Source: a phage. From it: a stretch of 64,000 nt of DNA. The position numbers and the translations under genes are program-made. This document shows, piece by piece, positions 27 through 60,618 of this stretch. The stretch is taken from assembly GCA_024682255.1 (NCBI GenBank), contig GCA_024682255.1_4716.1; one strand, 5' to 3'. Numbering within the stretch: position 1 is the stretch's first letter; the number at the start of each line of letters is the position of its first letter. Under the pieces are notes generated by a model that worked only from the letters and a program-made list of their open reading frames with translations, was not told the origin of the DNA and did no database searches.

Positions 27-59
27 CTTCCTCCCTACCCATAACGGGCGGGGAGGAAG
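27..59 (-). terminator. intrinsic terminator-like hairpin followed by T14 on minus strand
   Basis: CTTCCTCCC/GGGAGGAAG stem; minus-strand U-tract (plus-strand A14 at 1-14) about 12 nt downstream. Confidence 0.45.
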
Positions 60-76
60 GTTTATGTCAATTTAAT

Positions 77-415
77 TTAGAACCAGAGTTCTTTCATGAG
101 ATAGGCTTCCATATCGTAGATAAGCCACTCGTCAGGGATTTCTAAAGGATCGTCTTCGGTTAAGGTCAGCATGTGCAGGGCGAACGCACGCTTAATATCG
201 TTCAGCAGTTTCTCGTCGTCGTAACCTTCGGGTAGTTTACGGTCAACCAGCTGGGTTTGTTTATAGACGTCGCGGAACGCTTCAGGGCTGTGTTTATCCA
301 TCGGGAATTGTTCAGCAGCCTGAACCATCGAAAGCGTCCAGCTTACAACATTGTAGCGCTCACCGTTAATTTCACTGAACTGATCATCGATTAAACAGAT
401 TTGTTGTACGTTCAT
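77..415 (-). CDS. hypothetical protein (112 aa)
   Basis: ORF in minus-strand gene array; 4-nt overlap with upstream ORF; no recognisable motif. Confidence 0.5.
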   Translation of the reverse strand: MNVQQICLIDDQFSEINGERYNVVSWTLSMVQAAEQFPMDKHSPEAFRDVYKQTQLVDRKLPEGYDDEKLLNDIKRAFALHMLTLTEDDPLEIPDEWLIYDMEAYLMKELWF

Positions 416-1305
416 TCATTTTCTCCATTCTTATCTTGGTCGCAATCACACTCTTCGACGTCTTTCTTACTTAAACGTAAGACGCTGAGTGCAGCATGCT
501 TGAGTTCTTGCAACGCGCTTTTCAGCTGACCTTCTTCATCGAAATCAAAATACTTCTCGTTGTAGCTTAACGCTGGAATCATATTTACGAGAGGTTCGAT
601 GGCAGGCATCAGCATTTCAATGACGACCTTAGGATCAACAAAGCGTTCAAACCCTTCAGGAAGTTTGCTCGCTACAACCTTATCGTTTTTGATGTAGAAT
701 TTGTTCTTGAACAAATCGTCAAGAATAGCATTCTCTTCATCCGTACGTTTTGCGTGAGGACGATCGATCATCTGCACAAACACATCGCTCAACGCTTCAG
801 GCAACGTCGGATTTTCACGAAGATAAGTTCCAGCCGGAATTTCAATATCGATCTTCGTCCACTCAACAACCTGGTGGTCTCGCGTATAGATGACGTCAAC
901 TTCCCATGCCAGGCCATCAGCGCTTTCTACAGTGTAACGTGTTTTCGCTTGACCTTCCGGAGCCATACGCTCGATAGCATCAAACATCTCGACTGGAATT
1001 TCTACCTCGCTTTCCGTTGCGTCACCTGGACCACGATACACCTTCGTGGTCATGATGTATTTCGGCTCTTCGTTATCGATCTGTATCGCACGTGCGCGCA
1101 CCTGACCTTTCACACCACCAACAGCCGTGTTATCAAACAACCATTGATGTTGCACCATATGTTCGATTTTTGATGCGACTTGACGAAGACGTTCAACACC
1201 GTCTTCAGCCAGTTTACCAAAGAAGACCAGCTCACGTTCCTGCTGTGTCTCACCACTTAACATCATTAAATTGGCGATTTGTTTCACGCCTCTTACTTGT
1301 GACAT
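412..1305 (-). CDS. hypothetical protein (297 aa)
   Basis: Long ORF, co-directional; no recognisable motif. Confidence 0.55.
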   Translation of the reverse strand: MSQVRGVKQIANLMMLSGETQQERELVFFGKLAEDGVERLRQVASKIEHMVQHQWLFDNTAVGGVKGQVRARAIQIDNEEPKYIMTTKVYRGPGDATESEVEIPVEMFDAIERMAPEGQAKTRYTVESADGLAWEVDVIYTRDHQVVEWTKIDIEIPAGTYLRENPTLPEALSDVFVQMIDRPHAKRTDEENAILDDLFKNKFYIKNDKVVASKLPEGFERFVDPKVVIEMLMPAIEPLVNMIPALSYNEKYFDFDEEGQLKSALQELKHAALSVLRLSKKDVEECDCDQDKNGENE

Positions 1306-1373
1306 ACATGCTCCGGTTATAAGGGCCTGCTTCGAGGCCCCGCATTGATTTTTGATTCCACCAAACGCTATCG

Positions 1374-5582: not shown

Positions 5583-5739
5583 AATCTCATTTCCTCTTCT
5601 ACGTTAGGATAGATGACATGTTGGATATACGTTGTCTTTGCATATATTGCTTTATTTCCGTCAGAAATAACGGAAAATAAAAACAACGACATAGTTCCCT
5701 CCCACCTCCACATGGGAGAGGGAGGGCTATTCGTGTTTA

Positions 5740-6124: not shown

Positions 6125-6553
6125 TTAGCAATCGTTTAAAACTTTTTCGATACGGTGGTTGACAAGTTCATTGAATGACTCTTCAACTTGTTCAATGATT
6201 TCATCAACGTCGATATCTAATTGTTGGGGTTGGATAACATGCTCTTTCATGGTTTCCAGCCAGTATTCGGCTTTAACCATGACGTTAGCGACGTGTTCGA
6301 CCTGGCTGCGTATGTCGACGATCTGGCAGTCAGGATTGTTAATGTCGATGATGTGTCCGTGGTGGTTGATAAAACCTAGCTTATTTGATGCCCTTACCGC
6401 ATCACGAGTCAGTTCTTGCAAGATTAAATTATTGACGTAGTTCACTGCTACGGAACGATTTTCGTTATCACTCATACCAGGGATCCTCTTTAAGTCTTCA
6501 CATTCTAGTGTTAAGCAGTTAAAATAAACCGTTCCTTTAATCAGCATAAACAT
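6125..6553 (-). CDS. hypothetical protein (142 aa)
   Basis: ORF in minus-strand array. Confidence 0.5.
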   Translation of the reverse strand: MFMLIKGTVYFNCLTLECEDLKRIPGMSDNENRSVAVNYVNNLILQELTRDAVRASNKLGFINHHGHIIDINNPDCQIVDIRSQVEHVANVMVKAEYWLETMKEHVIQPQQLDIDVDEIIEQVEESFNELVNHRIEKVLNDC

Positions 6554-6593
6554 CCTCCTCCCACCACATGGGCAGGAGGAGGCGTAATATGCA

Positions 6594-9215: not shown

Positions 9216-9569
9216 ATGTCTAACACGCCCCTGAACGACTTTCTTAAGACAAACCCCGATGACCTCATCCACGATCTTGATTTCAGGAACGTTGTTGAGA
9301 TGCATCTGGAATATTTCAAAAATGCCGGACTGGTCTCTACGATAGACATACCACCCGAACGTGCCTACGAATTCGATGGTAACTTTTATGGATTGTGCCG
9401 TGTTCTGCTCGGCGAGGGTAGCGAACCAATGCACTGGATAACCATGAGACTCAATGGTTATCGTGACCCTACGGAATACACCGCCGATGTTCTAACCATG
9501 AAGATTGTCGATACAAGCGCAATCAACACATTAAAACAACAGTACCGCACAATCCACTACAGCGCTTAA
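9216..9569 (+). CDS. hypothetical protein (117 aa)
   Basis: ATG at 9216 preceded by GAGGT RBS; divergent from beta gene; followed by hairpin terminator. Confidence 0.5.
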   Translation: MSNTPLNDFLKTNPDDLIHDLDFRNVVEMHLEYFKNAGLVSTIDIPPERAYEFDGNFYGLCRVLLGEGSEPMHWITMRLNGYRDPTEYTADVLTMKIVDTSAINTLKQQYRTIHYSA

Positions 9570-9574
9570 GATAA

Positions 9575-9603
9575 CCCTCCCACAGCGTAAAGCGTAGGGA
9601 GGG
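9575..9603. terminator. bidirectional terminator hairpin between convergent genes
   Basis: CCCTCCC ... GGGAGGG stem followed by CATTTAT on plus strand. Confidence 0.45.
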
Positions 9604-9634
9604 CATTTATGCCGTCGTTCGCTGACTTAATACA

Positions 9635-10915: not shown

Positions 10916-10970
10916 ATTGTATTTCCTTTTCTTTACGTCAACGGTCCCCTTACAACAGGGGACCTATGGA

Positions 10971-14148: not shown

Positions 14149-14349
14149 AACCTCTTTTCGCGGTTCCCTGTTAAAACGTCTTCTGTGACGTCTACCACAA
14201 AGGTAATATAAGCGTGAATAATTTTGGATTCCGGCTGAGTTATCGCTCAGCATGCAAGGCATCCCGCCGAAGCGAGACACCTTGCACTAACGGAAAATAT
14301 TCGCGTTACCTTCTGAATCGAAGACTCAGAATGCGATGCTAAAGCATGA

Positions 14350-18807: not shown

Positions 18808-18925
18808 TCCGTTCTCCTCAAGCTTTTCATTTCATAGGGTGGTGGAAATTCGTAGAAAGTTACAAAAATAAAAAAGAATGGGCAGCCCCTCCCCACCCGA
18901 AGGTAGGGAGAGACCGCAAATATAC

Positions 18926-19509: not shown

Positions 19510-20346
19510 TTAACGTGTTCTCCTATCCCGATGCGTATACGACTGAAGACCGATGTCCATATGCGGTAACGTTAGCGTCTGCCAGATCTGTCGTGCGTAG
19601 CGATCAAGCGTATGATCGTCAGTAACACAATCGACGGGTTCGATGAGGTGAGTCGTATACTGGCTTTTCACAGAGAAAGGTTCGTTGTTAGCTGTATCTC
19701 CTAATCCGCTTTTCACCGTGAAGACAAGACGTGTGACTATCATCGCCTTATGTTGCTGTTCATTGTAACGAAGGCTGCGGTATACGGCATAGCTCCCTCC
19801 TTTTAAGCTTCGGGTATAACGAAGGTCGGAGGTCGTCTCGGAAATCTGATACAGCATCCAGTCTAACGTATCTCGCCAGTACACATCATCCACATCAGGA
19901 ACCGTGATACCGTACCGCGTAGGCAGCAATTCTAAAAGCAATTTATAAAGTCCGCGACGTAAGCCATGCTCTTCAGTTTCCGATAAACCGTTTCCAACGT
20001 AACGTGAAATACGCGTACGTAAATACGTACGGATGAACATATTCGCCATCAGTGTTTTCACTCTGCTACTGGTATCCTCAAAGCGATCAACGCTGAAACT
20101 CGTTTCAATCAACCGTCCATTAAAATACAATGCAGCAACATACATCGCATTATTGCTATCTCGTTCAATGTTTAAACGACCGCAGATATTGGCTGCGTCG
20201 TTCATGGTAAATTCTAATTTATCGTGTTCGATACGATAGATAATATCCTCTTGGGTTGCCAGGCTCGCAATGCGACGATAGCCTGGAGAAGTACGTTTTA
20301 CACTCATGATTGTCCTCGTTTTCAATTTTAAGATTGCATGCGGCAT
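19510..20346 (-). CDS. hypothetical protein (278 aa)
   Basis: ORF in minus-strand array. Confidence 0.5.
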   Translation of the reverse strand: MPHAILKLKTRTIMSVKRTSPGYRRIASLATQEDIIYRIEHDKLEFTMNDAANICGRLNIERDSNNAMYVAALYFNGRLIETSFSVDRFEDTSSRVKTLMANMFIRTYLRTRISRYVGNGLSETEEHGLRRGLYKLLLELLPTRYGITVPDVDDVYWRDTLDWMLYQISETTSDLRYTRSLKGGSYAVYRSLRYNEQQHKAMIVTRLVFTVKSGLGDTANNEPFSVKSQYTTHLIEPVDCVTDDHTLDRYARQIWQTLTLPHMDIGLQSYTHRDRRTR

Positions 20347-20389
20347 AAACCCTCCCCGCCTTATGCAGGGAGGGTAGCCATTAAATGGA

Positions 20390-24307: not shown

Positions 24308-24348
24308 GGGGTATCTCCTACAAATGAAAAAGAACGTTAGGACGTATA

Positions 24349-24372
24349 AGGGAGGGAGGTTGCCCTCCCTCC
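24349..24372 (-). terminator. hairpin between chimallin-like gene and beta-prime gene (terminator/attenuator)
   Basis: GGGAGGGAGG ... CCTCCCTCCC stem; T-rich stretch downstream on minus strand. Confidence 0.4.
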
Positions 24373-24399
24373 CGTCAGATTACATCGAACGTTCTTCCA

Positions 24400-26549: not shown

Positions 26550-27644
26550 ATGTTTCGTGTTTTAAATAACCTCCCGCGAACATCATCGGGTGTGCAACCC
26601 GTCCCTCAGAATGACTATCTAATACGCGAAGTTCAAAGAAACCTACAGACAATCCAGAACCACTATCAAGGTTTTACCTTCGCGGTTCAGAGCGATCACA
26701 TCCTTGCGTTGCTGCTTGCACAGCTCCCTATGAGATACGACATCTCAGTACAAACTTACTACGACATGATTCTCGATCTTACCCCAGAATTGGGTAATCG
26801 TGTCAAGTTGACAACATCAAGATACGCGGGTAAGTTATTCGACGGTGCTTTCTATCCGGGATTGCACGAAGCTATTATTGCAACCGGTGAAAGTCGTCTT
26901 ATTTCACGTGACATTCTTGACAACTGGCGTAATTGGTCACCAGTTAGAATCGTGACGCATCCATACGCAAATCTTCGTTACATTCCTCTTCACCGAAAGC
27001 AGGTTGAAGATGGACGAGGTTTTGCGGTCATTATGGTTGATGTACCTTTATTAGCGCTACAGTATCGAATGTGGTCTTTGGTCATGGGACATAACGTCGA
27101 CGGCAAATGGGTGGTTAAAGAACCGGTTACAAGCTTCCTTGCGAGTTTTCCGTTGGTTAACGCATTATACTCACACAACGATGTTGTTATACGCAATCGT
27201 TGTTTGTGGGTATCTCCGGCTAAGAATCCACTCAAATCACCAATTTACGTTAACGACCTTGATAACGTATTCAGCCAAGTCGTTCTGTCCGTACAGCATC
27301 ATTTATTACGAAGAAGACGAAGCTACACCGATATGCTTAAACAGATGCCGAGTTTATACGGTGATCAGTACCAAGCAACCCGAATGGGCTACACCGTCGA
27401 TCTTCGACAAACCCGATGGGCAAGGGATCTGGGTTGTCTGTCGTTATGGCAACAACTCGTCACATTGCAAAACGTATCTGAAAGCGTCGGATTCAGCAGC
27501 CAAATCGATAATGACCTGTACCGTGCTGCCGACCGGAGTCTAAAAGAAGGTAACTGGGAATCCTCTCCATTACCTGGCGATTTAAGACGTGAAGTTATTG
27601 CGCAGGTTGCCGACCTCTTAAAAATTCTTCCTGCTGGTGCATAA
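26550..27644 (+). CDS. hypothetical protein (364 aa)
   Basis: Plus-strand ORF divergent from the chimallin-like gene. Confidence 0.5.
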   Translation: MFRVLNNLPRTSSGVQPVPQNDYLIREVQRNLQTIQNHYQGFTFAVQSDHILALLLAQLPMRYDISVQTYYDMILDLTPELGNRVKLTTSRYAGKLFDGAFYPGLHEAIIATGESRLISRDILDNWRNWSPVRIVTHPYANLRYIPLHRKQVEDGRGFAVIMVDVPLLALQYRMWSLVMGHNVDGKWVVKEPVTSFLASFPLVNALYSHNDVVIRNRCLWVSPAKNPLKSPIYVNDLDNVFSQVVLSVQHHLLRRRRSYTDMLKQMPSLYGDQYQATRMGYTVDLRQTRWARDLGCLSLWQQLVTLQNVSESVGFSSQIDNDLYRAADRSLKEGNWESSPLPGDLRREVIAQVADLLKILPAGA

Positions 27645-27710
27645 TCACCTCCCTCTTCCCTTGCATCCTCCCAACCCGTAAGGGAAGGGAGGATGGGGTG
27701 GTGGATTATG

Positions 27711-29864: not shown

Positions 29865-29929
29865 AAATCCTCCAAAAGTTATTTAGTCTGTCTACATCAT
29901 CTCGTATATCTGTTAAAAAAGAAGGACGG

Positions 29930-29957
29930 CATAAAAAAGAACCGATCCAGCCGAAGC
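29930..29957 (-). terminator. rho-independent terminator
   Basis: AACCGATC ... GATCGGTT stem followed on minus strand by CTTTTTTAT. Confidence 0.55.
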
Positions 29958-30162
29958 CAGATCGGTTAAAAAGGATAATAACTGACAGAAAGATATCGAT
30001 GATGTTCGTGAAACAAGATCTTCTCTCGTGTACAATGATGCTAGATCAGAGGGAGGTTGTAGCACGAGAGGTGATTCGCCAAAGAAGGGATAAAAACACG
30101 AATCTATCTTATTTCACTGATGGCACTAACCACTCAAAATATATAGTACGGTATGTAAAAGT

Positions 30163-33962: not shown

Positions 33963-34015
33963 GCTTTCTCCTACGCGGCATAAAAGCCTGCCCCGAAGGA
34001 CAGGCTCGATAGAAC

Positions 34016-36141: not shown

Positions 36142-36749
36142 TTAACAACAGCTTCCTCCCTCGGTGTTTTTGAGGGAGGTATTTGCCGCTTGAACACTTT
36201 CAGCACGTTCGCAAATTCAGCAGCAATAATACAGGCCGAGGTTGATAGCTTATTGCTGAAAATGAGATCGTCCGGTAAACAATCGAACTGAATACCGTAT
36301 TGCGTCTTTGTCTCATCAACGATCAATGATGGTGTCGATCTTGTCTTCGCGATATCGGTGATATACAAACGTAAAAATAATTCACCGTCTTCGCTATCCA
36401 TAAAACGATAGGTGTTACCAGAAAACGCAACACATGGCGTAACGATAAATTGAACACGATCGTCGATCGGATGGATATTTAACCAACGTTCGATATCACT
36501 GCTACTCACATTCCGCATATTTACTACGGTAAAAGCAAATAGCGTATCGTGATGTTTGGAATAATGCAGCACATACGCCGCACCTTTCTTCCTGTGAATC
36601 CCTTCAATGTATTCTATTGTCGTATAGCCGGATTTATATAGCTTTACTTGCGGTTTCTCACTCATCATAACAACCCTTCCCGTTTCATCGCAGCACGCAT
36701 ACTTGCGTAAAGCGCATTCTTCATTGCACCTGGACGCAACGGATAACAA
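36132..36749 (-). CDS. hypothetical protein (205 aa)
   Basis: ORF in minus-strand array. Confidence 0.45.
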   Translation of the reverse strand: MLSVASRCNEECALRKYACCDETGRVVMMSEKPQVKLYKSGYTTIEYIEGIHRKKGAAYVLHYSKHHDTLFAFTVVNMRNVSSSDIERWLNIHPIDDRVQFIVTPCVAFSGNTYRFMDSEDGELFLRLYITDIAKTRSTPSLIVDETKTQYGIQFDCLPDDLIFSNKLSTSACIIAAEFANVLKVFKRQIPPSKTPREEAVVNQK

Positions 36750-39204: not shown

Positions 39205-39462
39205 GATAAGAATCCTTAGTATGTTTGATATGTTGTTTAATTAACATATTAAGTTTAAAAGAGGTTATGTTTTACGTATTGTTAATAACGTATTCTTATC
39301 TCTATTAGGTTATGTTCTATCTAAAGATAGTAAACAGATATAATGCTCCCCACCTCCCCATTCTCCCAAGTAATACTGGCCTACCGGCCCTCTCCTTTTT
39401 AAGGGAGAGAGTAAGCATTCAGTATTGCTCAAATGAATAAGCAAAACAGTATAAACTTACCG

Positions 39463-39488
39463 TCTCGAGTTGTCTCGAGACGGTGTAG
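39463..39488. terminator. perfect palindromic hairpin (terminator-like)
   Basis: ACCGTCTCGAG-TTG-TCTCGAGACGGT in a 308-nt AT-rich intergenic region. Confidence 0.4.
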
Positions 39489-42348: not shown

Positions 42349-42500
42349 CAACGTAACGGTAAAACTTTACTGACGTTGGTTATTATTTGAAGCATAGGGC
42401 TTCACCCAGGAGTACCATCCCTTTAAGTCGTTTGTCCTCTCCTGGTTAACTGTCGTTCTCTCACAGTGCTCGACAGACCAAAAATGCTCAGGCCTCATAG

Positions 42501-42529
42501 CCTCCTCTGGGAATGGAACCCAGAGGAGG
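42501..42529. terminator. bidirectional terminator between convergent genes
   Basis: CCTCCTCTGGG-AATGGAA-CCCAGAGGAGG stem-loop. Confidence 0.5.
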
Positions 42530-42541
42530 ACTATGTTTGCC

Positions 42542-42862
42542 TTAAAATTCAATGCGACCTTTTGCCGTAAATAATACACCTCTTTGCCAACAGAAAAAAT
42601 CCTCCGATTGAGCGCAGACACGAATACCCACATCGAATAGATGTTTTGTTCTGGCGCTTAAACAATCTGGATCTTCTACATACAACAGAAGACGTTGGCA
42701 TTTATTTTGAATGCGTTCGACAAGGATATTCTTATCGCTTAAAATAAAGTGCGCGTTATCTGTTAAGTTATCGTCGGTTTCCAGCTGCTTGACGAGTTTG
42801 ATTAAAATACGTAATTGCTCAAGTGTGTCATGATCAAGTGAATCACCCATGGCGTACCTCAA
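42542..42862 (-). CDS. hypothetical protein (106 aa)
   Basis: ORF in minus-strand array. Confidence 0.45.
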   Translation of the reverse strand: MRYAMGDSLDHDTLEQLRILIKLVKQLETDDNLTDNAHFILSDKNILVERIQNKCQRLLLYVEDPDCLSARTKHLFDVGIRVCAQSEDFFCWQRGVLFTAKGRIEF

Positions 42863-42935
42863 CGTTATACGTCGTTTGTATTATAATACGCTATCGTCTC
42901 CCCGCCTGTATTAACGGGGAGTCTGCAGACTACTC

Positions 42936-45167
42936 TTAGAAAAAACCGCCCGGACGGTATTGACCCATCGTCATCCACGCATTACGAGAAATATTCCGTT
43001 CATTCGAAGAGCGGCTTATTTGACGATAAGTATTCGCTCGTTCCTCCCTTGCTTTCGTGATCATCGCATCAATAGAAACAGCCGCTGAATCTTCCCCACG
43101 TATTTTTCCTTTATACGTAAGAAGCTCTGCCTCCAATCGATCCAAGATAAGGCCGTTGGTTTCGGTCTTAAGCAACTCATAGATTTCAGCAACGCGTTGA
43201 CGTAGCTTCGCCTGCTGTTGGTTAAGATACGCTTCATACGGATCGATTTCACCCGTTACAGATGCCGGTAAACGACTCATGACTTTAAGCGGATCGATAC
43301 CGTAATGAATCTGTTTCTTAGCGCGCTTGATGAACCACATCGCTAACATCCAGGCGAACGTCATGTCATCATGCATTCCGTCCTGGTGGTCGACACGTCC
43401 ATCTTTGATAACCAATCCAAGGATCTCGGAACACAGCATCTTATCGCGTAACTGCCCGCGGGTTTCTACGATACCTTCCATCAAGATGTCGGAATACAAC
43501 TCCATGCGTTTGCGTGCATCCGTCGTGAAGCCCAAATGCCGTTTACGCTGAGCGTACCAACTTTCATCACGCATGCTCAATGGCAGTTTCAGGTCTTCGA
43601 ACATCGCTGGGTTATCAGCATGTCTGTCCACAATGGTGTTGTATACACGTTTGAACACGTCGATGCCTGCTTGTCTCAGGAACTCTTCAATCGCGTCTAA
43701 CAACATGATTGCACTGCTTTTACGTTCAGGAATCAACGTAACGTTCTTAAAACGCATCATGAAGTTGGCCATCCAACGAGCAAAAGAAAGCAGGCTCAGT
43801 TTATTAAAACGTCCTGTCGCAACAACTTCTGCTGTTTCCACATCCACCATCACCAAACCGATAGCATCACGACCTATTGCATCACTGGTGTCTAAACCAG
43901 CAACCACCTTATTGTTCTGCATGTATGTCTCGATTTTACCTCGAGGTATATACCAGTTAATGCAGTAGCCTTCAGGTGAGATCTCGATATGGTCGATTTC
44001 ACGTTGTCCTGCCATGATCATCTCAACCATCTCAGCGGTTAACGGGCTTTCTGCTGAACCGTTGGTCCAAATGTTCATGTAGTCACGGTCTTTCTGAAGT
44101 TTATCACCTTCCGTTTCGTTCATGGTTTTTGCTAACCATTCGTCACTGAATCCCAATTGAGCATGGTTCCATTGTGCCCCTATCCTGACGGTCGCTTTGC
44201 TAAGTTCACACGGTACGTTGTTCAATACCGTCTGATGCAGATGCTTTTCGTTACGGCAGTCAAAGAAACTTTCAGAGAACGGCGCTGAACGCATGAAAAC
44301 TTCATAAGCCCATTTGCCTTCGCGTTTATCCAATTCACCTGCTGTTGTCGTGTAGATGATACTTGTCAGGTCGCCGTTGCTTAATGCTTCATCGCGTGCC
44401 GCACCCATCGCACCGATACCAGCAGGAACAATGATTTCGATGTATTTCGTAAACGCGGTTTCGTCGCTATGGAATAGCGGGGTTGTTAGACCACGACCGA
44501 TGTTTGTTGCTTGTTTCTTATCCGAACGCGGAATCTTTACCGATAGCTTGTTCTTGAAACGCGTGTAGGTCACGTTCTCTTTGTTCGATGAATCGCGACT
44601 ATCCAGCGTCCAGAGATACGCAGGCAACAGATCGCGTATACTACGCACGTCTTCTACCGTTTTCGTACGGGCATCACCGTCTTTTGTTAACTGAATAACC
44701 TCGGTGTTTCGACTACGAACATAGGTTAGATAACAGAACAACCCTAACATGGTCATGGATTTACCCGTCTGACGTATCTGTATCTGATACCAGTTCGTTC
44801 GGGTAAATATCCCCCAGAGCATCGGAATGTTACCGCGGTTAGCACGGAATGAAATTTTGTTATCACCCGCTTTAGCCGGAACACGCATCACTTCACGGAA
44901 GAAGTACCACGGATTAAGATAGCATTCCGCACTGATCATCTGAATCTGTTCTGACGTCAAATTCGGTGCGTGGGGATCGACACCAATCAATCTTGGGTTT
45001 AATAACGCCATGAAAAACGCAGAGTTCCGGACACCGAATTCACGACGATACAAGATCGCTAAATCACGCCAACTTGTGTTTGTTGTTTCCCAGTGTGGAA
45101 CAGCCTGAGGAAAATAATCCCAATCTTCCTCAAACAGGATGATTTTCTTCGGATCGACAATCGACAT
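42936..45167 (-). CDS. terL: terminase large subunit
   Basis: 743 aa; terminase-type Walker A IRQTGKSMTM (Q-x-GKS); C-terminal nuclease-like acidic motifs GLDTSDAIGRDAIG and HDDMTFAW. Confidence 0.65.
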   Translation of the reverse strand: MSIVDPKKIILFEEDWDYFPQAVPHWETTNTSWRDLAILYRREFGVRNSAFFMALLNPRLIGVDPHAPNLTSEQIQMISAECYLNPWYFFREVMRVPAKAGDNKISFRANRGNIPMLWGIFTRTNWYQIQIRQTGKSMTMLGLFCYLTYVRSRNTEVIQLTKDGDARTKTVEDVRSIRDLLPAYLWTLDSRDSSNKENVTYTRFKNKLSVKIPRSDKKQATNIGRGLTTPLFHSDETAFTKYIEIIVPAGIGAMGAARDEALSNGDLTSIIYTTTAGELDKREGKWAYEVFMRSAPFSESFFDCRNEKHLHQTVLNNVPCELSKATVRIGAQWNHAQLGFSDEWLAKTMNETEGDKLQKDRDYMNIWTNGSAESPLTAEMVEMIMAGQREIDHIEISPEGYCINWYIPRGKIETYMQNNKVVAGLDTSDAIGRDAIGLVMVDVETAEVVATGRFNKLSLLSFARWMANFMMRFKNVTLIPERKSSAIMLLDAIEEFLRQAGIDVFKRVYNTIVDRHADNPAMFEDLKLPLSMRDESWYAQRKRHLGFTTDARKRMELYSDILMEGIVETRGQLRDKMLCSEILGLVIKDGRVDHQDGMHDDMTFAWMLAMWFIKRAKKQIHYGIDPLKVMSRLPASVTGEIDPYEAYLNQQQAKLRQRVAEIYELLKTETNGLILDRLEAELLTYKGKIRGEDSAAVSIDAMITKAREERANTYRQISRSSNERNISRNAWMTMGQYRPGGFF

Positions 45168-45217
45168 ATAAACTCCTCCGATGGAGGGTGCTCGGCACCC
45201 TCCATCGTTGTATTACC

Positions 45218-50476: not shown

Positions 50477-50619
50477 ATGTAATTCCTTTATTACGGCATA
50501 TAAGAAAACGGGTTAAGCACACAGATTTACGCATAATTGTAATATTTTACGTTATGCCTATGACATTGTGTCACGTGTGCAATTATGTCATACAATTTCC
50601 TTAAATTAAGGAGAGTTCC

Positions 50620-53598: not shown

Positions 53599-53624
53599 CG
53601 TAAAAAAAAAAGCATATTAACCTC

Positions 53625-53661
53625 CCTTCCTTCCCTAGCCGTCAAGGCCGGGGAAGGAAGG
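53625..53661. terminator. bidirectional rho-independent terminator after sheath/tube operon
   Basis: CCTTCCTTCCC ... GGGAAGGAAGG stem; TTTATGGTTTATTTA downstream on plus strand, T10 on minus strand. Confidence 0.6.
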
Positions 53662-53673
53662 TTTATGGTTTAT

Positions 53674-54213
53674 TTACTGTGTGTTCTTAGCTTCACGAAT
53701 GAAAATAACATCAGGATATTCTTGAGATTCAATGAATTCAGGATTACGATAACGACGAATATGACGCATCGTTGTACAAGCAAGTTTGTAAAGATGTTCC
53801 TCCTCACGTTGTGTTAATAACATCAGTTGCGCGTCTGGGATCACGAATGGGAGTCTTTCATTCACATATTCCCGAAGGTCATCGAGATCATCGTGATGAA
53901 TGCCCTCTGAGAGCTTATATAACGCTTCCAGCAATTCTAATCCACCGAACTGGTAACTTCCTATTGTCGTCTTAAACAATGCGCCAGAACGCGTGGTGGA
54001 TGCTCTATCGGCGACATCGTATTGTTCTAACATATATCCGTAGACCATGCTACGTCGATCCAGGGTATCCGTAACGAGATTACGCCACCGTTCCAATCTT
54101 TCGAGCGCTTTGTCGATAGAGTAAACGATCATGCCATGTTCATCCAACTCTTCCGCAATACCCAATAGTTCATTGTTGTTAGGTTTTGCTGCACCGATAA
54201 GAAAAACACTCAT
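53674..54213 (-). CDS. hypothetical protein (179 aa)
   Basis: ORF in minus-strand array. Confidence 0.45.
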   Translation of the reverse strand: MSVFLIGAAKPNNNELLGIAEELDEHGMIVYSIDKALERLERWRNLVTDTLDRRSMVYGYMLEQYDVADRASTTRSGALFKTTIGSYQFGGLELLEALYKLSEGIHHDDLDDLREYVNERLPFVIPDAQLMLLTQREEEHLYKLACTTMRHIRRYRNPEFIESQEYPDVIFIREAKNTQ

Positions 54214-54626: not shown

Positions 54627-54729
54627 AGCGCTAACCCCAAAGGATAAAAATAAAACCTTGACATAACCACCACCGCAACCCCATACAGGGCTACGGTGGG
54701 GTCATACAGAGAGACGTGTTAAGTTACAA

Positions 54730-56145: not shown

Positions 56146-56427
56146 CTTTTTAAATTCCTACTTAACAATAAAGTTCATATACGGCGTATGTATCCGTAGA
56201 ATAATGGGTTCTGGTAAGATCTTACATCAAAATGACGGCATAAAAAGTACCTCCTTACCCATGTGGGTAAGGAGGTTCGTCCATCACGACGAAAGGACGT
56301 TATGTGACGCGGTGTCCATAACGGCCCTGGTAGCAGGCATTAAAGATAACAAAAAGGATGTAAGTTGAGCTAAACCACCTAAATACGGTAACGATTACTT
56401 CCGTACACAATATAACGCAACATCTTT

Positions 56428-57316: not shown

Positions 57317-58048
57317 TCACCATTCATACGATCCGGCGCACTGATGCCCCAATAGTACCAACGCGTCGTCTTTGGCAGCTAGGTATTTTTCTAACGTTAT
57401 CCGTGAAACAGACACATTAGAGAAATCCATCACGCCTAAGCGATGATCGTAATGGTTAATTTGCATCCGGTAATAACCTTTCTTTACCACCAGAAACTCG
57501 CCTTGACGCAACCATAGCGGAACGTTGTCAACCTCCGCATGGATATAAAACACCGGACATTCTGTCGTAACAGAGTTTTCCTTTCCATCGCTATCTGTAA
57601 TTTTCCCTTTGGGAACAGCCGCGATAAAACATTCTCCGATACGCTCGGTTTGATACCTGTTTGGATAACGCGGATCGTGAAATAACCAGTGCTCATCGCT
57701 AATATCAACATCGGATAATAACGTACGATGCGGACGTAGGGCGATATCAAACGGAACACGATAAATAACGTACCCGCCTAACCAACGGGCTAAGTGACCA
57801 CCGGAATAGTACTGCTTGATTGCGGTACTGTAACCGTATATACAACCCATCAAACTGCTGGATACACAGATCCTTGGAAACGACCCGTCTTCCATACGCA
57901 AGGTACGTTGAGGGATACGCGGCATCATCGTTTTCAGTTCGGTGTCGGTGCTGATATGCAATAAACCGAAAGGAAGCGTTTTACTCGGTACCCACGCGCA
58001 ACGTTCCATGATCGCTCTTGGGACAATAGTCTCGATAGACGATAACAT
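57317..58048 (-). CDS. hypothetical protein (243 aa)
   Basis: ORF in minus-strand array. Confidence 0.5.
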   Translation of the reverse strand: MLSSIETIVPRAIMERCAWVPSKTLPFGLLHISTDTELKTMMPRIPQRTLRMEDGSFPRICVSSSLMGCIYGYSTAIKQYYSGGHLARWLGGYVIYRVPFDIALRPHRTLLSDVDISDEHWLFHDPRYPNRYQTERIGECFIAAVPKGKITDSDGKENSVTTECPVFYIHAEVDNVPLWLRQGEFLVVKKGYYRMQINHYDHRLGVMDFSNVSVSRITLEKYLAAKDDALVLLGHQCAGSYEW

Positions 58049-58049
58049 A

Positions 58050-58760
58050 TCACCCCCTCAGAATCGCTTCTGTTTCGCTGATCGTATCCGCAGGATAAAC
58101 CAAACTACTATCGATTGCGTTATTCACGTAACCACCCATTAAGTTGGTGATGGTGTTTGTACCGCTATCGATAATGTTTCGTAATCCGATGTCGATGGCT
58201 TTTAACGTACTGCGTTCTTCATCCGAAAGCAAACGCCACGCTCGACGACGATCGTTGGGGTCACGTGTGGTGATAGACGCCAGAACAGAATAGATGCTGC
58301 TGTCTGCGTTCAATTTAACGCCAGCCAATTTCGCTGACGTATAGAGCAGCTGATATTTTTCTTTCTCAGTGTACCACCATGGCACCTTACCGAGCGTATA
58401 GATCTCGTTATACATCAGCCATGGGAAAGAGTTTCGCATCACGACATCGGTCGACACCAACACCGTGTCGCCGGGAAGAAACACAAATTCATAAAACGGC
58501 TGACCATCCATGGTAATTTCACGGATGTCAGACGGGTCGATATGGAGCTGGGTCAATGCGTGGCTGACACCATACTGTCCATCAGGAAGAATAATCGGGC
58601 AGCACGCACAAACCCGGTTCTCACTCCCGATGATAGATAAACCCAATCCCTCGTAACGGACGGGTGTCAGAATCGAACACCCGCCACGAGTAACAACAGA
58701 TTTATCTTCTTGTATGTCCCAGTCCGCAAGCACCGCAGCACCGTTGCGGACAAGCGCCAT
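58050..58760 (-). CDS. hypothetical protein (236 aa)
   Basis: ORF in minus-strand array. Confidence 0.5.
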   Translation of the reverse strand: MALVRNGAAVLADWDIQEDKSVVTRGGCSILTPVRYEGLGLSIIGSENRVCACCPIILPDGQYGVSHALTQLHIDPSDIREITMDGQPFYEFVFLPGDTVLVSTDVVMRNSFPWLMYNEIYTLGKVPWWYTEKEKYQLLYTSAKLAGVKLNADSSIYSVLASITTRDPNDRRRAWRLLSDEERSTLKAIDIGLRNIIDSGTNTITNLMGGYVNNAIDSSLVYPADTISETEAILRG

Positions 58761-60284
58761 TTACACCTCGCTAATCTGGATAACGTAAAGCTGCTGGGCC
58801 ACGTAATCGGTGGTCAGATGCATCGTTGCGATGGTCGCTGCTTCGAACACCGTGAGTTCAGGACGTTCACGCATAATCAAATCGATCTCGTCGATGAGAC
58901 GGTTAACGCCTTGAGCGTCTTCGTGATGCATCGTTTTCACGTAGAGCGTACGGAAATACTGCTGGAAATTAGCTACGTCGGTATCGGTAAGGTTAGCAAC
59001 TTCACCACGCACAATTTCCATGACCTTCTTACGGGTATCTTCATCGAGGTCTACCGTAATCAGGTCAGCAAATACACCCTGCAATGCCAACGCATATGCA
59101 CGTAAGCGGTTTGCGGCTTGCTGGCTGGCTTTCATGTTGATGTAGTTACGGTAATGCTGCATGAAGCCCGCACCGTTAGCCAGCAGTTCATCTTTACTGA
59201 TGAGTTCACGTTCTAACAGCACAGCTGCGGTCAGTGCTTCCGGCGAACCACCTTCTTGCAGATAACCCATGTAGACGTCTGCGTTAACGAAAATCGTCAT
59301 CGTTGACGCGTCTTCAGCACGTTGAATCTGAGAAGCTGACGGTGCAGAAAGAATCAGTTCACCACGCTCCATACGCAGGATACGATCGCGACCGACGCGG
59401 GCCATCCCGTTGATCGCCGCAGCGCGAGCTTGTTGCATTTTAGCACGGTAGTTTTCAAGCATCATGTCGTTGCCGTCCTGGATATCTTCCAGCAGGTTAA
59501 CGGCCCACATATAGCAGAGGAATGCAGGAGTTGCCGCAGCGCGGGAACCGTGGAATGCAACGTTATCGCTATCCGGATATGTAATCAGATAAGCGGTGTT
59601 GTTCGAAGAAGGAGCAGAACCACGGAAGAAATAGTTGTAGATGTCTTCCAATGCCTGATCGCTCATCCCTTCCGTTGCTTGCTGTACAAAACGATCCAGG
59701 TTTTCATTACCGGTATACAGCAACGTACGCAGCTTATCACCGGTGATAAACGCAAGCTTTCCGGTTGGGGTGAAATCGTTATTAATCGAAATCAAGCCGT
59801 TGAGATCGTAATCGCTAACTAATGCCTGGTACTCTTCGGAGTTATAAAACTCAGGATAGTAACTCAGACTTACTGTCGGGATCAGTTTCGGTGCCAGGAT
59901 GATCGAATCAATGCGTTTTTCCAGTTCCGGGTACAGCGCACGGCATTTCGGCAGGATGGTATTACGCGCCAACTCTTTGGCATACACCACTTTTTCCACC
60001 ACGTCTTGAACTGCGGTCTGTAAAACTTCATCGTGGATATAAACCTCGCGTTCGCTGGCAGGTGCTACAACGCCATCTTCGGTTTCATCAAGTGTTTCAG
60101 CAACAACCATACGTTCAGCACTAAGCTGCACCAACGCATCCGCATCTTCCGGCGGCTGGTTCCAATGCATGGTTTCACAAACCGCGGCTAACGGCGTGCC
60201 CGGAATGGCTGCGACGATTTGGTTACGTTTGATAAACCCTTCGACAATGGGCTCAACGGCATAAACGGTTTTATTGGTGATCAT
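58761..60284 (-). CDS. hypothetical protein (507 aa)
   Basis: Long ORF in minus-strand array. Confidence 0.5.
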   Translation of the reverse strand: MITNKTVYAVEPIVEGFIKRNQIVAAIPGTPLAAVCETMHWNQPPEDADALVQLSAERMVVAETLDETEDGVVAPASEREVYIHDEVLQTAVQDVVEKVVYAKELARNTILPKCRALYPELEKRIDSIILAPKLIPTVSLSYYPEFYNSEEYQALVSDYDLNGLISINNDFTPTGKLAFITGDKLRTLLYTGNENLDRFVQQATEGMSDQALEDIYNYFFRGSAPSSNNTAYLITYPDSDNVAFHGSRAAATPAFLCYMWAVNLLEDIQDGNDMMLENYRAKMQQARAAAINGMARVGRDRILRMERGELILSAPSASQIQRAEDASTMTIFVNADVYMGYLQEGGSPEALTAAVLLERELISKDELLANGAGFMQHYRNYINMKASQQAANRLRAYALALQGVFADLITVDLDEDTRKKVMEIVRGEVANLTDTDVANFQQYFRTLYVKTMHHEDAQGVNRLIDEIDLIMRERPELTVFEAATIATMHLTTDYVAQQLYVIQISEV

Positions 60285-60517
60285 TACTGCGCTCCCTCCA
60301 ACGCATTACTACCTACGGGTTCTTTGGTTTCCAGACGGCTGTTTAAGCGCGCAGCAACCGCATCTTCCAATCCCAACGGCATAACCTTTTTGTTCACGTC
60401 AGGATCGGCGGCATCATTACCAACGGTTTGACGTACGACCTCAGCAACCAACGTTACCGCGTTCGTCAGCGCAACAAAGCTCGCTGCCCGAGCCGTGTTA
60501 AGTTGTTCTTGGTTCAT
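60284..60517 (-). CDS. hypothetical protein (77 aa)
   Basis: Short ORF. Confidence 0.4.
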   Translation of the reverse strand: MNQEQLNTARAASFVALTNAVTLVAEVVRQTVGNDAADPDVNKKVMPLGLEDAVAARLNSRLETKEPVGSNALEGAQ

Positions 60518-60592
60518 TCACTTTTCCTTTTAATGTCAGAGCATCGCATTCTTGACGTACGTCAAGAAGGTACTGCGTTCAGCGAAATAAAC

Positions 60593-60618
60593 GAGCAGGG
60601 GCATGACGCCCCCTGCTC
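60593..60618 (-). terminator. terminator hairpin after beta gene exon 2
   Basis: GAGCAGGGGC-ATGAC-GCCCCCTGCTC immediately after stop, T-rich flank. Confidence 0.5.

What the first reader, a model, noticed from the sequence alone, without database searches (positions are those of the whole stretch)
27..60618. Family of CCTCCC/GGGAGG intergenic stem-loops, two with an unusual hairpin plus spacer plus long U-tract layout
At least a dozen intergenic regions carry hairpins whose arms are CCTCC(C)-rich and GGGAGG-rich (27-59, 5697-5726, 6554-6582, 9575-9603, 20350-20374, 24349-24372, 27648-27692, 36164-36188, 42501-42529, 53625-53661, 56249-56276). Two of them (27-59 and 53625-53661) share an extended module: A10-14 on the plus strand, about 12 nt spacer, CCTTCC...GGAAGG hairpin, then TTTATG. 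They probably serve as factor-independent terminators for the phage RNAP, but the sequence conservation of the arms suggests a specific recognition element.
Basis: seen in the sequence. Interest (0 to 1): 0.4.

Follow-up and report, generated by a model that had tools for sequence, protein, structure and literature searches.

The report
Jumbo-phage terminator hairpins with TTATG tail
The CCTCCC/GGGAGG stem-loops are real. They are the Goslar-phage version of a sequence-conserved transcription terminator (GC hairpin followed by TTATG-YYGT) whose φKZ and 201φ2-1 counterparts were mapped experimentally, so this is a known kind of element in a new host phage.

Summary
The window is about 97% identical to E. 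coli nucleus-forming jumbo phage Goslar. All reported hairpins exist; one has coordinates about 10 nt off. They are far beyond chance: 12 CCYCC/GGRGG-armed hairpins versus 0.13 in shuffles. At least 10 further members were missed.

They lie 0–31 nt after stop codons or between convergent genes. They are more stable on the sense strand through G·U pairs, so they act as RNA. They are followed at a fixed distance by TTATG-YY-GT.

This matches the φKZ terminator motif BCCYCCCCHWWDGGGRRGGBYTTATKYYGT, mapped by ONT-cappable-seq, and 201φ2-1 motif A. A covariance model trained only on φKZ puts its top window hits on these hairpins.

Across genera the tail is the invariant part, not the arms. Arm order flips in Klebsiella phage Eowyn and in some Goslar members.

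The two "A-run + spacer + hairpin" modules, plus a third copy elsewhere in Goslar, are bidirectional terminators. Their spacer is a degenerate minus-strand tail.

The GGGAGG arm doubles as a Shine-Dalgarno sequence only for gp183 and the tiny gp167 ORF.

Verdict: a new member of a known kind. The open point is that the tail's TATG equals the nvRNAP promoter tetranucleotide.

The parts
1..75 (.). Bidirectional terminator module between convergent gp161(+) and gp162(-). It comprises A14 (1-14), a 12-nt spacer (15-26), hairpin 27-59 and the + strand tail GTTTATGTCAATTTA. On the - strand the hairpin is followed by ATGTGCTAACTA and then U14.
   Evidence: z -5.3 on +, -4.9 on -; phiKZ-trained model hit 24-73(+)
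5683..5729 (-). Terminator after gp168: CCCTCCCTCTCCC-ATGTG-GAGGTGGGAGGG with tail AACTATGTCGT. The tail's ATG is the annotated start of the 31-aa ORF gp167.
6538..6592 (-). Terminator 11 nt after the gp170 stop: CCTCCTCCTGCCC-ATGTG-GTGGGAGGAGG with tail ATGTTTATGCTGA. The sense-strand fold is 4.7 kcal/mol more stable than the antisense fold.
9566..9618 (.). Bidirectional terminator between convergent gp172(+) and gp173(-): CCCTCCC...GGGAGGG with + strand tail CATTTATGCCGTCG.
10943..10964 (-). Intergenic hairpin GGTCCCCTGTTGTAAGGGGACC, 6 nt after the gp174 stop. It has no TATG tail.
14252..14287 (-). Strong UUCG-loop hairpin between gp176 and gp175. Arms are not CCTCC-type and there is no TATG tail. 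The sense strand is about 13 kcal/mol more stable (-28.5 vs -15.7 for the best hairpin on each strand).
18866..18917 (-). Terminator 8 nt after the gp182 stop: GCGGTCTCTCCCTACC-UUCG-GGTGGGGAGGGGCTGC followed by CCATTCTTTTTTATTT. Sense fold is -30.4 and antisense -14.6 kcal/mol.
20337..20377 (-). Terminator 15 nt after the gp184 stop: CCCTCCCTGC-ATAAG-GCGGGGAGGG with tail TTTATGCCGC. The tail's ATG (20346) is the gp183 start codon and the 3' arm is its Shine-Dalgarno sequence.
24340..24374 (-). Purine-first member between chmA (gp246) and gp247: GGGAGGGAGGG-CAAC-CTCCCTCCC with tail TTATACGTCC.
27640..27705 (.). Compound two-tier bidirectional terminator between convergent gp245(+) and gp244(-). 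It belongs to the dispersed CCCTTCCCTTACGGGTTGGGAGG sub-family.
29926..29967 (-). UUCG-loop hairpin AACCGATCTGGC-TTCG-GCTGGATCGGTT with tail CTTTTTTATGCCGTCC. Its Goslar orthologue is annotated as a putative terminator.
33972..34007 (-). Terminator 9 nt after the gp235 stop: GAGCCTGTCC-TTCG-GGGCAGGCTT with tail TTATGCCGCG. This is the best hit of the phiKZ-trained model (E = 3e-4). Its Goslar orthologue is annotated as a putative terminator.
36153..36190 (+). Terminator 11 nt after the gp233(+) stop, lying inside the 3' end of the convergent gp232: CCTCCCTCGG-TGTTT-TGAGGGAGG with tail TATTTGCCGC.
39443..39486 (-). Hairpin ACCGTCTCGAG-ACAA-CTCGAGACGGT with tail AAGTTTATACTG, 28 nt after the gp227 stop.
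42490..42542 (.). Bidirectional terminator between gp224(+) and gp223(-): CATAG-CCTCCTCTGGG...CCCAGAGGAGG-CTATG. TATG is present on both strands.
42896..42923 (-). Hairpin GACTCCCCG...CGGGGAGAC, 12 nt after the gp222 stop. It has no TATG tail.
45165..45207 (-). Purine-first hairpin CGATGGAGGGTGC-CGA-GCACCCTCCATCG, 10 nt after the gp221 stop. It is followed by GAGGAGTTTATATG, where the Shine-Dalgarno sequence lies outside the stem and the ATG is the terminase gp222 start.
53599..53678 (.). Bidirectional terminator module between convergent gp217(+) and gp216(-). It comprises A10 (53602-53611), a 13-nt spacer, hairpin 53625-53661 and the + strand tail TTTATGGTTTATTTA. On the - strand an AACC/GGTT stem extension is followed by AATATGC and then U10.
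   Evidence: (E = 0.004 on the - strand)
54650..54705 (-). Hairpin CCCCACCGTAGCCC-TGTA-TGGGGTTGCGGTGGTG with tail GTTATGTCAAGGTTTTATTTTT. It is rich in G.U pairs: sense -34.0 vs antisense -18.7 kcal/mol.
56232..56284 (-). Hairpin ACCTCCTTACCC-ACAT-GGGTAAGGAGGT with tail ACTTTTTATGCCGTC. It lies in the 282-nt gp212-gp213 spacer.
60577..60620 (-). Hairpin GAGCAGGGGGCGTCATGCCCCTGCTC with tail GTTTATTTCGC, directly after the gp207 stop. Its Goslar orthologue is annotated as a putative terminator.

Best explanation
These are intrinsic (hairpin-dependent) transcription terminators of a Goslar-type chimallivirus. They belong to the sequence-conserved terminator class described for phiKZ and 201phi2-1.

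The nascent RNA folds into a G+C-rich stem-loop whose arms are usually all-pyrimidine on one side and all-purine on the other. The stem is followed by a short U-rich stretch ending in UAU, then G-Y-Y-G-U. The G lies 5-8 nt after the last G:C pair, which is where a hairpin-destabilised elongation complex would release its RNA.

Many elements are symmetric (CATAA-hairpin-TTATG). Those between convergent genes work in both directions. The two 'A-run' modules are such bidirectional units in which the minus-direction tail is followed by a long U-run.

Shown here: structure, position, strand asymmetry, motif identity and cross-genus conservation. Inferred: that transcripts end there in Goslar.
For: 1. 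Identity of the phage. The window is 97% identical to Goslar. It carries homologues of the phage RNAP subunit genes in phiKZ-like synteny.

2. Published motif. phiKZ has 133 mapped termination sites, and 61 share BCCYCCCCHWWDGGGRRGGBYTTATKYYGT, including 6 bidirectional ones between convergent genes (PMC10914365). 201phi2-1 motif A (n = 59) resembles it, and 8 such terminators work in vivo with host RNAP (PMC11512511).

3. The same anatomy occurs here. CCCTCCC..GGGAGGG is followed by TTTATGCCGT. TATG-Y-Y-G-T follows the stem at a fixed distance in Goslar, phiKZ and Eowyn: the G lies 5-7 nt after the last G:C pair in 50 of 64 phiKZ cases and 6-8 nt in Goslar.

4. Covariance models trained only on phiKZ put their best window hits on these hairpins, read on a strand whose upstream gene is co-oriented. 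The phiKZ stems covary strongly: 99.5% paired and 6 of 7 pairs with double changes.

5. Position. Most hairpins start 0-31 nt after a stop codon, with four exceptions at 62-195 nt. Five sit at convergent junctions. In Goslar, hairpins <= -15 kcal/mol number 71 in 16.6 kb of intergenic DNA versus 45 in 220 kb of coding DNA.

6. RNA level. The sense strand is more stable than the antisense strand at 25 loci versus 7 (p = 6e-4). Window/Goslar differences inside stems are G.U<->G.C on the sense strand.

7. The tail belongs to the terminator. TATG tails occur at 13 of 20 convergent-junction hairpins, where no promoter or start codon is needed, versus 14 of 33 co-directional ones. Of 26 intergenic TATGCYG sites in Goslar, 23 directly follow a hairpin.

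8. Clade specificity of the tail. TATG accounts for 9 of 10 TAT tails in Eowyn and is present in RAY and LucasX. It accounts for 0 of 5 in T4 and 0 of 5 in a Bacillus phage.
Against: - No 3'-end mapping exists for Goslar or this relative, so termination is inferred from homology and anatomy.
- The U-tract (typically UUUAU) is short for a classical E. coli-type terminator. ARNold-based annotation of Goslar marked only 3 of the ~21 loci in this region.
- Individual E-values of the phiKZ-trained model in the window are modest (3e-4 to about 1), because Goslar stems have longer inner stems and loops.
- The model also scores the ordinary T4 soc terminator (E = 0.009). It therefore recognises generic terminator shape as well as clade-specific features.
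- The published 30-nt IUPAC motif gives no match in the window with <=3 mismatches.
- Three window hairpins (10943, 14252, 42896) lack the tail.
- Stable 3' hairpins could equally be read as RNA-stability or processing elements.
Confidence: 0.82

Rival explanations
1. Translation-control elements. The GGGAGG 3' arm is the Shine-Dalgarno sequence of the next gene and is sequestered by the CCTCCC arm. Ribosomes finishing the upstream gene, or other unfolding, would then couple translation.
For: The motif GGGAGGG-N2-3-TT-ATG has the geometry of a strong ribosome-binding site. At 20350 the tail's ATG is the gp183 start, and the upstream stop lies 15 nt before the stem. At 5697 the ATG starts the annotated 31-aa gp167 ORF.
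Against: - Only 2 of about 21 loci have the Shine-Dalgarno sequence in the arm together with a gene start at the tail's ATG. At gp222 the Shine-Dalgarno sequence lies outside the stem.
- Elsewhere the ATG opens ORFs of 2-50 codons or runs antisense into a convergent gene.
- The stretch after hairpin 6554 evolves like non-coding leader: 2 differences with no third-position bias, versus 25 of 31 at third positions in the CDS.
- TATG tails are at least as common at convergent junctions.
- Arm order is reversed in several members and in Eowyn and RAY.
- Most annotated genes have ordinary unstructured Shine-Dalgarno sequences.
Confidence: 0.08
2. Polymerase-read terminators. [quoted passage not shown] This would pause the enzyme with its active site at the G just after the hairpin and enforce termination. 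Possibly it would also allow immediate re-initiation at that G.
For: - The phiKZ late promoter is TATG with G as +1. Every base is required in vitro (PMC4666361), and GP123 binds it sequence-specifically in a pocket (PMC12809450).
- In terminator tails G follows TAT in 25 of 39 cases, although TATG is the rarest TATN genome-wide (16.5%).
- The G sits at a fixed 5-8 nt from the stem in five genera.
- TATG is absent from T4 and from a Bacillus phage. The Bacillus phage AR9 nvRNAP reads a different promoter.
- In a pairwise alignment, 7 of 15 named pocket residues are identical and 2 are conservative in Goslar gp039, against 24% overall identity.
Against: - This is purely inferential; neither transcriptomics paper makes the link.
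- The pocket is described as incomplete in the transcribing complex.
- 201phi2-1 terminators work with host RNAP alone.
- In phiKZ the position after TAT is K (G or T), not always G.
- The canonical late promoter P119L has no hairpin.
- A generic Y(-1)/G(+1) elemental-pause preference of multisubunit RNAPs (my own knowledge) could explain the G without any pocket.
- Five pocket residues differ in Goslar, and that alignment is uncertain.
Confidence: 0.2
3. RNA-stability or processing elements. The 3' stem-loops would protect mRNAs from 3' exonucleases, or mark endonuclease sites, without stopping the polymerase.
For: The hairpins are very stable (-16 to -34 kcal/mol) and sit at gene 3' ends. 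Goslar encodes a 3'-5' exoribonuclease (gp147). ONT-cappable-seq 3' ends cannot by themselves separate termination from trimming back to a hairpin.
Against: A pure stabiliser does not explain a conserved tail downstream of the stem. 201phi2-1 elements terminate in a two-reporter assay. Stabilisation is in any case an expected by-product of an intrinsic terminator rather than an alternative to it.
Confidence: 0.1
4. A dispersed repeat or mobile-element family (REP- or MITE-like), or DNA-level cruciforms acting in replication, packaging or as hairpin promoters.
For: - Near-identical copies exist. The CTTCC..TAGCCGTCAAGGCCGG..GGAAG module occurs three times with flanks, and its hairpin occurs a fourth time.
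- GAGCCTGTCCTTCGGGGCAGGCTT occurs twice in Goslar.
- The two-tier CCCTTACGGGTTGGGAG sub-family has at least 9 copies.
- Two hairpins have flipped loops between the window and Goslar.
Against: - Sense-strand G.U pairs would be C.A mismatches in the other DNA strand.
- No terminal repeats, target duplications or associated transposase were seen.
- Placement is tied to stop codons.
- The sequence-diverse members share only the hairpin shape and tail.
Confidence: 0.04

Closest known systems
phiKZ conserved intrinsic terminator motif 5'-BCCYCCCCHWWDGGGRRGGBYTTATKYYGT-3' (Putzeys et al. 2024, PMC10914365)
   Same: C-rich 5' arm and G-rich 3' arm. TTAT lies 2-3 nt after the stem and is followed by K-Y-Y-G-T. 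Elements sit in intergenic or post-stop positions. Bidirectional copies lie between convergent genes. T-runs sometimes follow the tail. The host phage is a chimallivirus with its own multisubunit RNAPs.
   Different: Goslar-type stems are longer (9-16 pairs, often with an inner stem and 4-7-nt loops, versus 7 bp + 4 nt). Because of this the literal 30-nt pattern does not match. The tail is more sharply defined (TTATGCYGT). A third of loci have purine-first or unrelated arms. No 3'-end data exist for Goslar.
201phi2-1 terminator motifs A/B (PMC11512511)
   Same: Motif A is reported to resemble the phiKZ motif strongly. Elongated stems arise from motif combinations. There are 15 bidirectional sites. 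The elements function as terminators in vivo.
   Different: The host is Pseudomonas, not E. coli.
Classical bacterial intrinsic (Rho-independent) terminators, including bidirectional ones
   Same: A GC-rich hairpin is followed by a U-rich segment. A-tract/U-tract symmetry gives bidirectionality. The phiKZ-trained model also scores the T4 soc terminator.
   Different: The U-tract is short and is interrupted as UUAU. A conserved G-Y-Y-G-U follows it. Arms are segregated into purine and pyrimidine strands (53 of 87 intergenic versus 14 of 102 coding hairpins). T4 terminators lack the TATG tail (0 of 5).
phiKZ nvRNAP late promoter consensus TATG (Yakunina 2015, PMC4666361; PMC12809450)
   Same: The same tetranucleotide, with the G as the functionally critical position.
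   Different: Late promoters such as P119L have AT-rich upstream DNA and no hairpin. Here TATG is hairpin-attached (23 of 26 intergenic TATGCYG sites) and persists at convergent junctions. The element therefore works like a terminator, not a promoter.

Membership tests
phiKZ-type conserved chimallivirus terminator | G+C-rich stem-loop with a CCYCCCC 5' arm and a GGGRRGG 3' arm | tested here: met
   About 12 of 21 window loci have CCYCC/GGRGG arms. The rest have purine-first or other GC-rich arms, as do some phiKZ members.
phiKZ-type conserved chimallivirus terminator | TTAT starting about 2 nt after the stem, followed by K-Y-Y-G-T | tested here: met
   TTTATGCCG occurs 6 times versus 0.5 expected, and 5 of the 6 follow hairpins. 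Tail profiles in Goslar, phiKZ and Eowyn agree, with the G 5-8 nt after the last G:C pair. The literal 30-mer with <=3 mismatches gives 0 hits because the loop and stem lengths differ.
phiKZ-type conserved chimallivirus terminator | Recognised by a structure+sequence model built from phiKZ members only | tested here: met
   Top hits of R1 and R2 in the window are the intergenic hairpins. Only two window hits have E < 0.01. The model also hits a T4 terminator, so it is not clade-specific.
phiKZ-type conserved chimallivirus terminator | Located downstream of genes, with bidirectional copies between convergent genes | tested here: met
   Most hairpins start 0-31 nt after a stop codon, and 5 lie at convergent junctions. 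Intergenic density of strong hairpins in Goslar is about 20-fold the coding density.
phiKZ-type conserved chimallivirus terminator | Acts at the RNA level | tested here: met
   The sense strand is more stable than the antisense strand at 25 loci versus 7 (p = 6e-4). Stem differences between window and Goslar are G.U/G.C on the sense strand.
phiKZ-type conserved chimallivirus terminator | Coincides with mapped transcript 3' ends | not testable with these tools
   No Goslar 3'-end data were found. The supplementary TTS tables for phiKZ and 201phi2-1 are not held.
phiKZ-type conserved chimallivirus terminator | Host genome is a chimallivirus encoding phiKZ-like multisubunit RNAPs | tested here: met
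   The window is 97% identical to Goslar. The nuclear shell protein, PhuZ and RNAP beta-like subunits are annotated in phiKZ-like synteny.
SD-sequestering translational operator | The 3' arm is the Shine-Dalgarno sequence of a real downstream gene whose start codon follows at 4-9 nt | tested here: not met
   This holds only for gp183 and the 31-aa gp167 ORF. It fails at the other roughly 19 loci.
nvRNAP late promoter (TATG) | TATG with G as +1 upstream of a same-strand gene, in the AT-rich context seen at P119L, with no hairpin requirement | tested here: not met
   The motif is hairpin-attached. It is equally or more frequent at convergent junctions. P119L has no hairpin. TSS data for Goslar are unavailable.
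Rfam-curated RNA families | Match at the gathering threshold | tested here: not met
   Only two group I introns match; nothing matches at the hairpins.

The most novel reading that the evidence does not exclude
The invariant tail of chimallivirus terminators (T-A-T-G at a fixed 5-8 nt from the stem, then Y-Y-G-T) may not be a mere U-tract. It could be a polymerase-read signal: the elongating phage nvRNAP would recognise non-template TATG with the same beta-lobe pocket it uses at late promoters. Hairpin and sequence-specific pause would then jointly terminate transcription, and might hand the enzyme straight into re-initiation at the G. That would make promoter and terminator recognition two uses of one protein-DNA contact, conserved from Pseudomonas to E. 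coli phages.
Probability: 0.18. Interest if true: 0.7.

Novelty: new member of a known kind. Interest (0 to 1): 0.33.

Why it matters
- It gives Goslar, the E. coli model for phage-nucleus biology, a usable map of about 20 likely transcription-unit ends in this 64-kb region and more than 50 genome-wide. Only 3 in this region were annotated.
- It shows that the phiKZ-type terminator is a clade-wide signature reaching enterobacterial chimalliviruses whose proteins are only about 24% identical.
- It shows that the conserved part is the tail TTATG-YYGT rather than the CCTCCC arms.
- These short elements are candidate insulator parts for E. coli synthetic biology.
- The coincidence of the tail with the nvRNAP promoter tetranucleotide gives a concrete, testable idea about how these unusual polymerases terminate.

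Tried and rejected
1. The published 30-nt phiKZ IUPAC motif run on the window gave 0 hits with <=3 mismatches. Its 3' half alone was not significant (5 hits vs 2.3 expected). The Goslar stems are longer, so fixed-length patterns fail.

2. MAFFT alignments of phiKZ terminators slipped register, and RNAalifold found no consensus structure. I solved this by seeding Infernal with fixed-geometry instances and an explicit structure.

3. Supplementary TSS/TTS tables of the phiKZ and 201phi2-1 papers and of the dRNA-seq paper are not held. Ceyssens 2014 is not held. I therefore could not test whether 3' or 5' ends coincide with the U|G of the tail.

4. I checked for a link to the RNA-binding protein ChmC. 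The eCLIP study found no motif, and binding peaks lie near start codons, so nothing ties it to these hairpins.

5. I considered the idea that the pyrimidine-first arm order marks the transcribed strand and rejected it. A CCTCC..GGAGG hairpin reads the same on both strands, and the order bias is not significant (18 vs 10).

6. I considered gp169 starting at the ATG after hairpin 6554. The substitution pattern argues for a non-coding leader.

7. The sigma-70 terminator scan found 24 sites versus 19 expected and caught only 2 of the elements. Rfam has no family for them.

Full report
**What the window is.**
A 10-kb probe is 97% identical to Escherichia phage vB_EcoM_Goslar, and no other phage record matches at the DNA level. 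Goslar is a nucleus-forming jumbo phage (chimallivirus). The window corresponds to about 146.6-210.6 kb of its genome. It carries the nuclear shell protein, PhuZ tubulin, terminase, tail sheath and several RNA-polymerase beta-like subunit genes, in the same local order as in phiKZ. I transferred 66 Goslar CDSs onto the window by blastn. Most genes are on the minus strand.

**Checking the observation.**
- Ten of the eleven hairpins are exactly as described.
- The eleventh is about 10 nt off; the true stem-loop is at 36153-36181.
- With flanks, the elements fold at -18 to -34 kcal/mol, with z-scores of -2.1 to -5.9.
- Both extended modules are confirmed base by base.
- Against 40 dinucleotide-preserving shuffles, the window has 22 hairpins <= -18 kcal/mol versus 2.3 +/- 1.4. 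It has 12 CCYCC/GGRGG-armed hairpins versus 0.13 +/- 0.4, and 10 TATG-tailed hairpins versus 0.4 +/- 0.5.

**Anatomy.**
- Position: most hairpins begin 0-31 nt after the stop codon of the upstream gene, read in the direction of transcription. Four exceptions start 62-195 nt after it. Five hairpins (27-59, 9575, 27648, 42501, 53625) lie between convergent genes.
- Strand asymmetry: co-directional elements are much more stable on the sense strand because of G.U pairs. Examples are 18882 (-30.4 vs -14.6), 54668 (-34.0 vs -18.7) and 14252 (-28.5 vs -15.7). Convergent elements are about equally stable on both strands.
- Tail: directly after the stem the sense strand reads (T)TTATG, most often TTTATGCCG(T). 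That 9-mer occurs 6 times versus 0.5 expected, and five of the six follow a hairpin. These include hairpins with quite different arms, at 29940 and 33985.

**Identification.**
- ONT-cappable-seq of phiKZ mapped 133 termination sites. Of these, 61 share 5'-BCCYCCCCHWWDGGGRRGGBYTTATKYYGT-3', a hairpin plus TTAT. Six bidirectional terminators lie between convergent genes (PMC10914365).
- The same group found 132 terminators in 201phi2-1. Its motif A (n = 59) 'strongly resembles' the phiKZ motif. Eight tested elements terminate in vivo in P. chlororaphis, that is, with host RNAP (PMC11512511).
- The window's elements have this anatomy. phiKZ instances found here, such as GCCTCCCTTCGGGGAGGCTTTATGTTGT and CCCTCCCGCAATGGGAGGGCATTATGTC, look the same.

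**Objective membership test.**
I built covariance models from phiKZ sequence only: R1 from 9 fixed-geometry seeds and R2 from 27 Infernal-aligned phiKZ matches. The phiKZ stems covary strongly.

Scanning all 128,000 positions of the window with filters off, the top hits of R2 are:

| Window hit | Strand | E-value |
|---|---|---|
| 33972-34007 | - | 3e-4 |
| 53606-53665 | - | 0.004 |
| 6538-6585 | - | 0.032 |
| 5683-5729 | - | 0.067 |
| 20337-20377 | - | 0.078 |
| 9572-9618 | + | 0.11 |
| 45158-45192 | - | 0.31 |
| 24-73 | + | 0.79 |

All eight are intergenic hairpins, read on a strand whose upstream gene is co-oriented (R1 gave the same picture). Individual E-values are modest because Goslar stems are longer with larger loops. 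For the same reason the literal 30-mer finds nothing. The model also scores the ordinary T4 soc terminator. The family is therefore a specialised form of the intrinsic terminator, not something apart from it.

**Genome-wide statistics.**
I assembled the whole Goslar genome.
- Hairpins <= -15 kcal/mol number 71 in 16.6 kb of intergenic DNA versus 45 in 220 kb of coding DNA.
- Of 35 co-directional loci, the sense strand is the more stable in 25 and the less stable in 7 (Wilcoxon p = 6e-4).
- TATG follows 25 of 53 sense intergenic hairpins, versus 5 of 102 coding hairpins and 5 of 32 antisense readings. G is the rarest base after TAT genome-wide, at 16.5%.
- The G of TATG lies 6-8 nt after the last G:C pair in Goslar and 5-7 nt in phiKZ (50 of 64). 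It is followed by Y-Y-G-T in Goslar, phiKZ and Eowyn.
- Of 86 TATGCYG sites, 26 are in the 7% of the genome that is intergenic, and 23 of those 26 directly follow a strong hairpin.

**What is conserved, and what is not.**
- Arms are strongly segregated into a purine strand and a pyrimidine strand: 53 of 87 intergenic hairpins versus 14 of 102 coding ones (p = 1e-14).
- The arm order is not fixed: 18 pyrimidine-first versus 10 purine-first loci, not significant. A CCTCC..GGAGG hairpin also reads the same on both strands.
- I sampled about 40 kb around ChmA from distant chimalliviruses; their ChmA is only about 24% identical. Klebsiella phage Eowyn has purine-first stems (GGGAGAGGC..GCCTCTCCC) followed by TTTATGCCGT, and 9 of its 10 TAT tails are TATG.
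- Erwinia RAY and Xanthomonas LucasX show the same tail.
- T4 shows 0 of 5 and the Bacillus phage AgentSmith 0 of 5.
- So the tail, not the CCTCCC arm, is the clade-wide invariant.

**The two 'unusual' modules.**
- Both lie between convergent genes: gp161/gp162 and gp217/gp216.
- A third copy with the same A-rich run, ~12-nt spacer, CTTCC..GGAAG hairpin and TTTATGGTTTATTTA lies at Goslar 11150-11260, again at a convergent junction.
- On the plus strand they are canonical: hairpin plus TTTATG plus a U-rich stretch.
- On the minus strand the 'spacer' carries a degenerate tail. At 27-59 it is ATGTGC in the window and ATATGC in Goslar. At 53625 it is AATATGC after an AACC/GGTT stem extension. The A-run then becomes a U10-14 run.
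- The phiKZ-trained model scores the minus reading of 53625 as its second-best window hit.
- phiKZ has the same 'tail then T-run' variant, for example GGGAGGGCATTATGTCTTTTTTTTT.
- They are therefore bidirectional terminators of the same family.

**The RBS idea.**
GGGAGGG-N2-3-TTATG looks like a ribosome-binding site. However, the tail's ATG is a gene start only at gp183 (20346), at the annotated 31-aa ORF gp167 (5692) and at gp222 (45167), where the Shine-Dalgarno sequence lies outside the stem. Elsewhere it opens ORFs of 2-50 codons or points into a convergent gene. The 78 nt after hairpin 6554 evolve like non-coding leader. TATG tails are at least as common at convergent junctions (13 of 20) as at co-directional ones (14 of 33). 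Shine-Dalgarno sequestration is thus a local side-effect at gp183, not the function of the family.

**Promoter or terminator?**
- phiKZ nvRNAP late promoters have the consensus TATG with G as +1, and every base is required (PMC4666361). [quoted passage not shown]
- The terminator tail contains the same tetranucleotide at a fixed distance from the stem.
- The canonical late promoter P119L has no hairpin, and hairpin-attached TATG persists where no promoter is needed. So these elements are terminators, not promoters.
- The coincidence still suggests that the polymerase itself may read the tail. Neither transcriptomics paper draws this link.
- In a pairwise alignment, 7 of 15 named pocket residues are identical and 2 are conservative in Goslar gp039, at 24% overall identity. 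This is weak support only.
- A generic Y(-1)/G(+1) pause preference of multisubunit RNAPs (my own knowledge) is a simpler alternative.
- I rate this reading at about 0.2.

**Verdict.**
The finding is real and well above chance, and the 'terminator' interpretation is right in outline. It is a new member of a known kind, the phiKZ-type chimallivirus terminator, here in a Goslar-like E. coli phage where it had not been described. The Goslar paper only ran ARNold, and only 3 of about 21 loci in this region are annotated. What remains unshown is that transcripts actually end there in Goslar.

Noticed in passing
window 61750-62261 (Rfam hit 61900-62266, - strand): A group I intron interrupts the RNAP-subunit gene gp207 in the window. 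Goslar's gp207 is annotated as one continuous CDS, and the blastn match to it breaks exactly here (query positions 3176/3218). The intron thus looks present in this phage and absent at that site in Goslar.
   Followed up: partly
window 21644-23041: A second group I intron (22660-23041) follows gp247, as in Goslar. The adjacent endonuclease ORF (21644-22627, HNH_3 domain, E = 9e-6) has no blastn match to Goslar's gp186 HNH endonuclease. The homing-endonuclease cargo therefore appears to have been swapped between two 97%-identical phages.
   Followed up: partly
window 39459-39484 and 54668-54701: Compared with Goslar, the loop (TTGT vs ACAA) or the whole inner stem-loop of these hairpins is replaced by its reverse complement while the flanks are unchanged. 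This is the signature of template-switch or 'flip' mutation within palindromes.
   Followed up: partly
window 50493-50503 (- strand), 24 nt upstream of the gp219 start: TTATATGCCGT, the same sequence as the terminator tails, occurs without any hairpin in the divergent gp219/gp218 promoter region. It is one of only 3 hairpin-less intergenic TATGCYG sites in Goslar, and could be a genuine TATG-type promoter.
   Followed up: partly
L005 1-60 and L008 25270-25307 (the two ends of the Goslar record): A two-tier hairpin plus TATGCCGTCAAGC is followed by A17 at the ends of the Goslar record. This is another long homopolymer about 13 nt after a terminator hairpin, but here it is A rather than T on the tail strand.
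   Followed up: no
Goslar genome (coordinates as): 4184, 27780, 43305, 49773, 63711, 72024, 93479, 134620; window 27648-27692: A dispersed sub-family of near-identical two-tier terminator hairpins (CCCTTCCCTTACGGGTTGGGAGRGGG + TATGCYGT) has at least 9 copies. The 24-nt hairpin GAGCCTGTCCTTCGGGGCAGGCTT also occurs twice (Goslar 3506 and 180586). Terminators seem to spread or homogenise within the genome.
   Followed up: partly
window 38167-39204 (gp228): gp228 is only 81% identical to Goslar at the DNA level, with indels, while its neighbours are 96-99% identical. It is a local hotspot of divergence.
   Followed up: no
window 56249-56276: The 5' arm ACCUCCUUA is identical to the 3' end of E. 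coli 16S rRNA, and the 3' arm is the perfect complementary Shine-Dalgarno sequence. It is followed by a 4-codon ORF (MPSF). This is probably incidental to the CCTCC/GGAGG arm composition.
   Followed up: no
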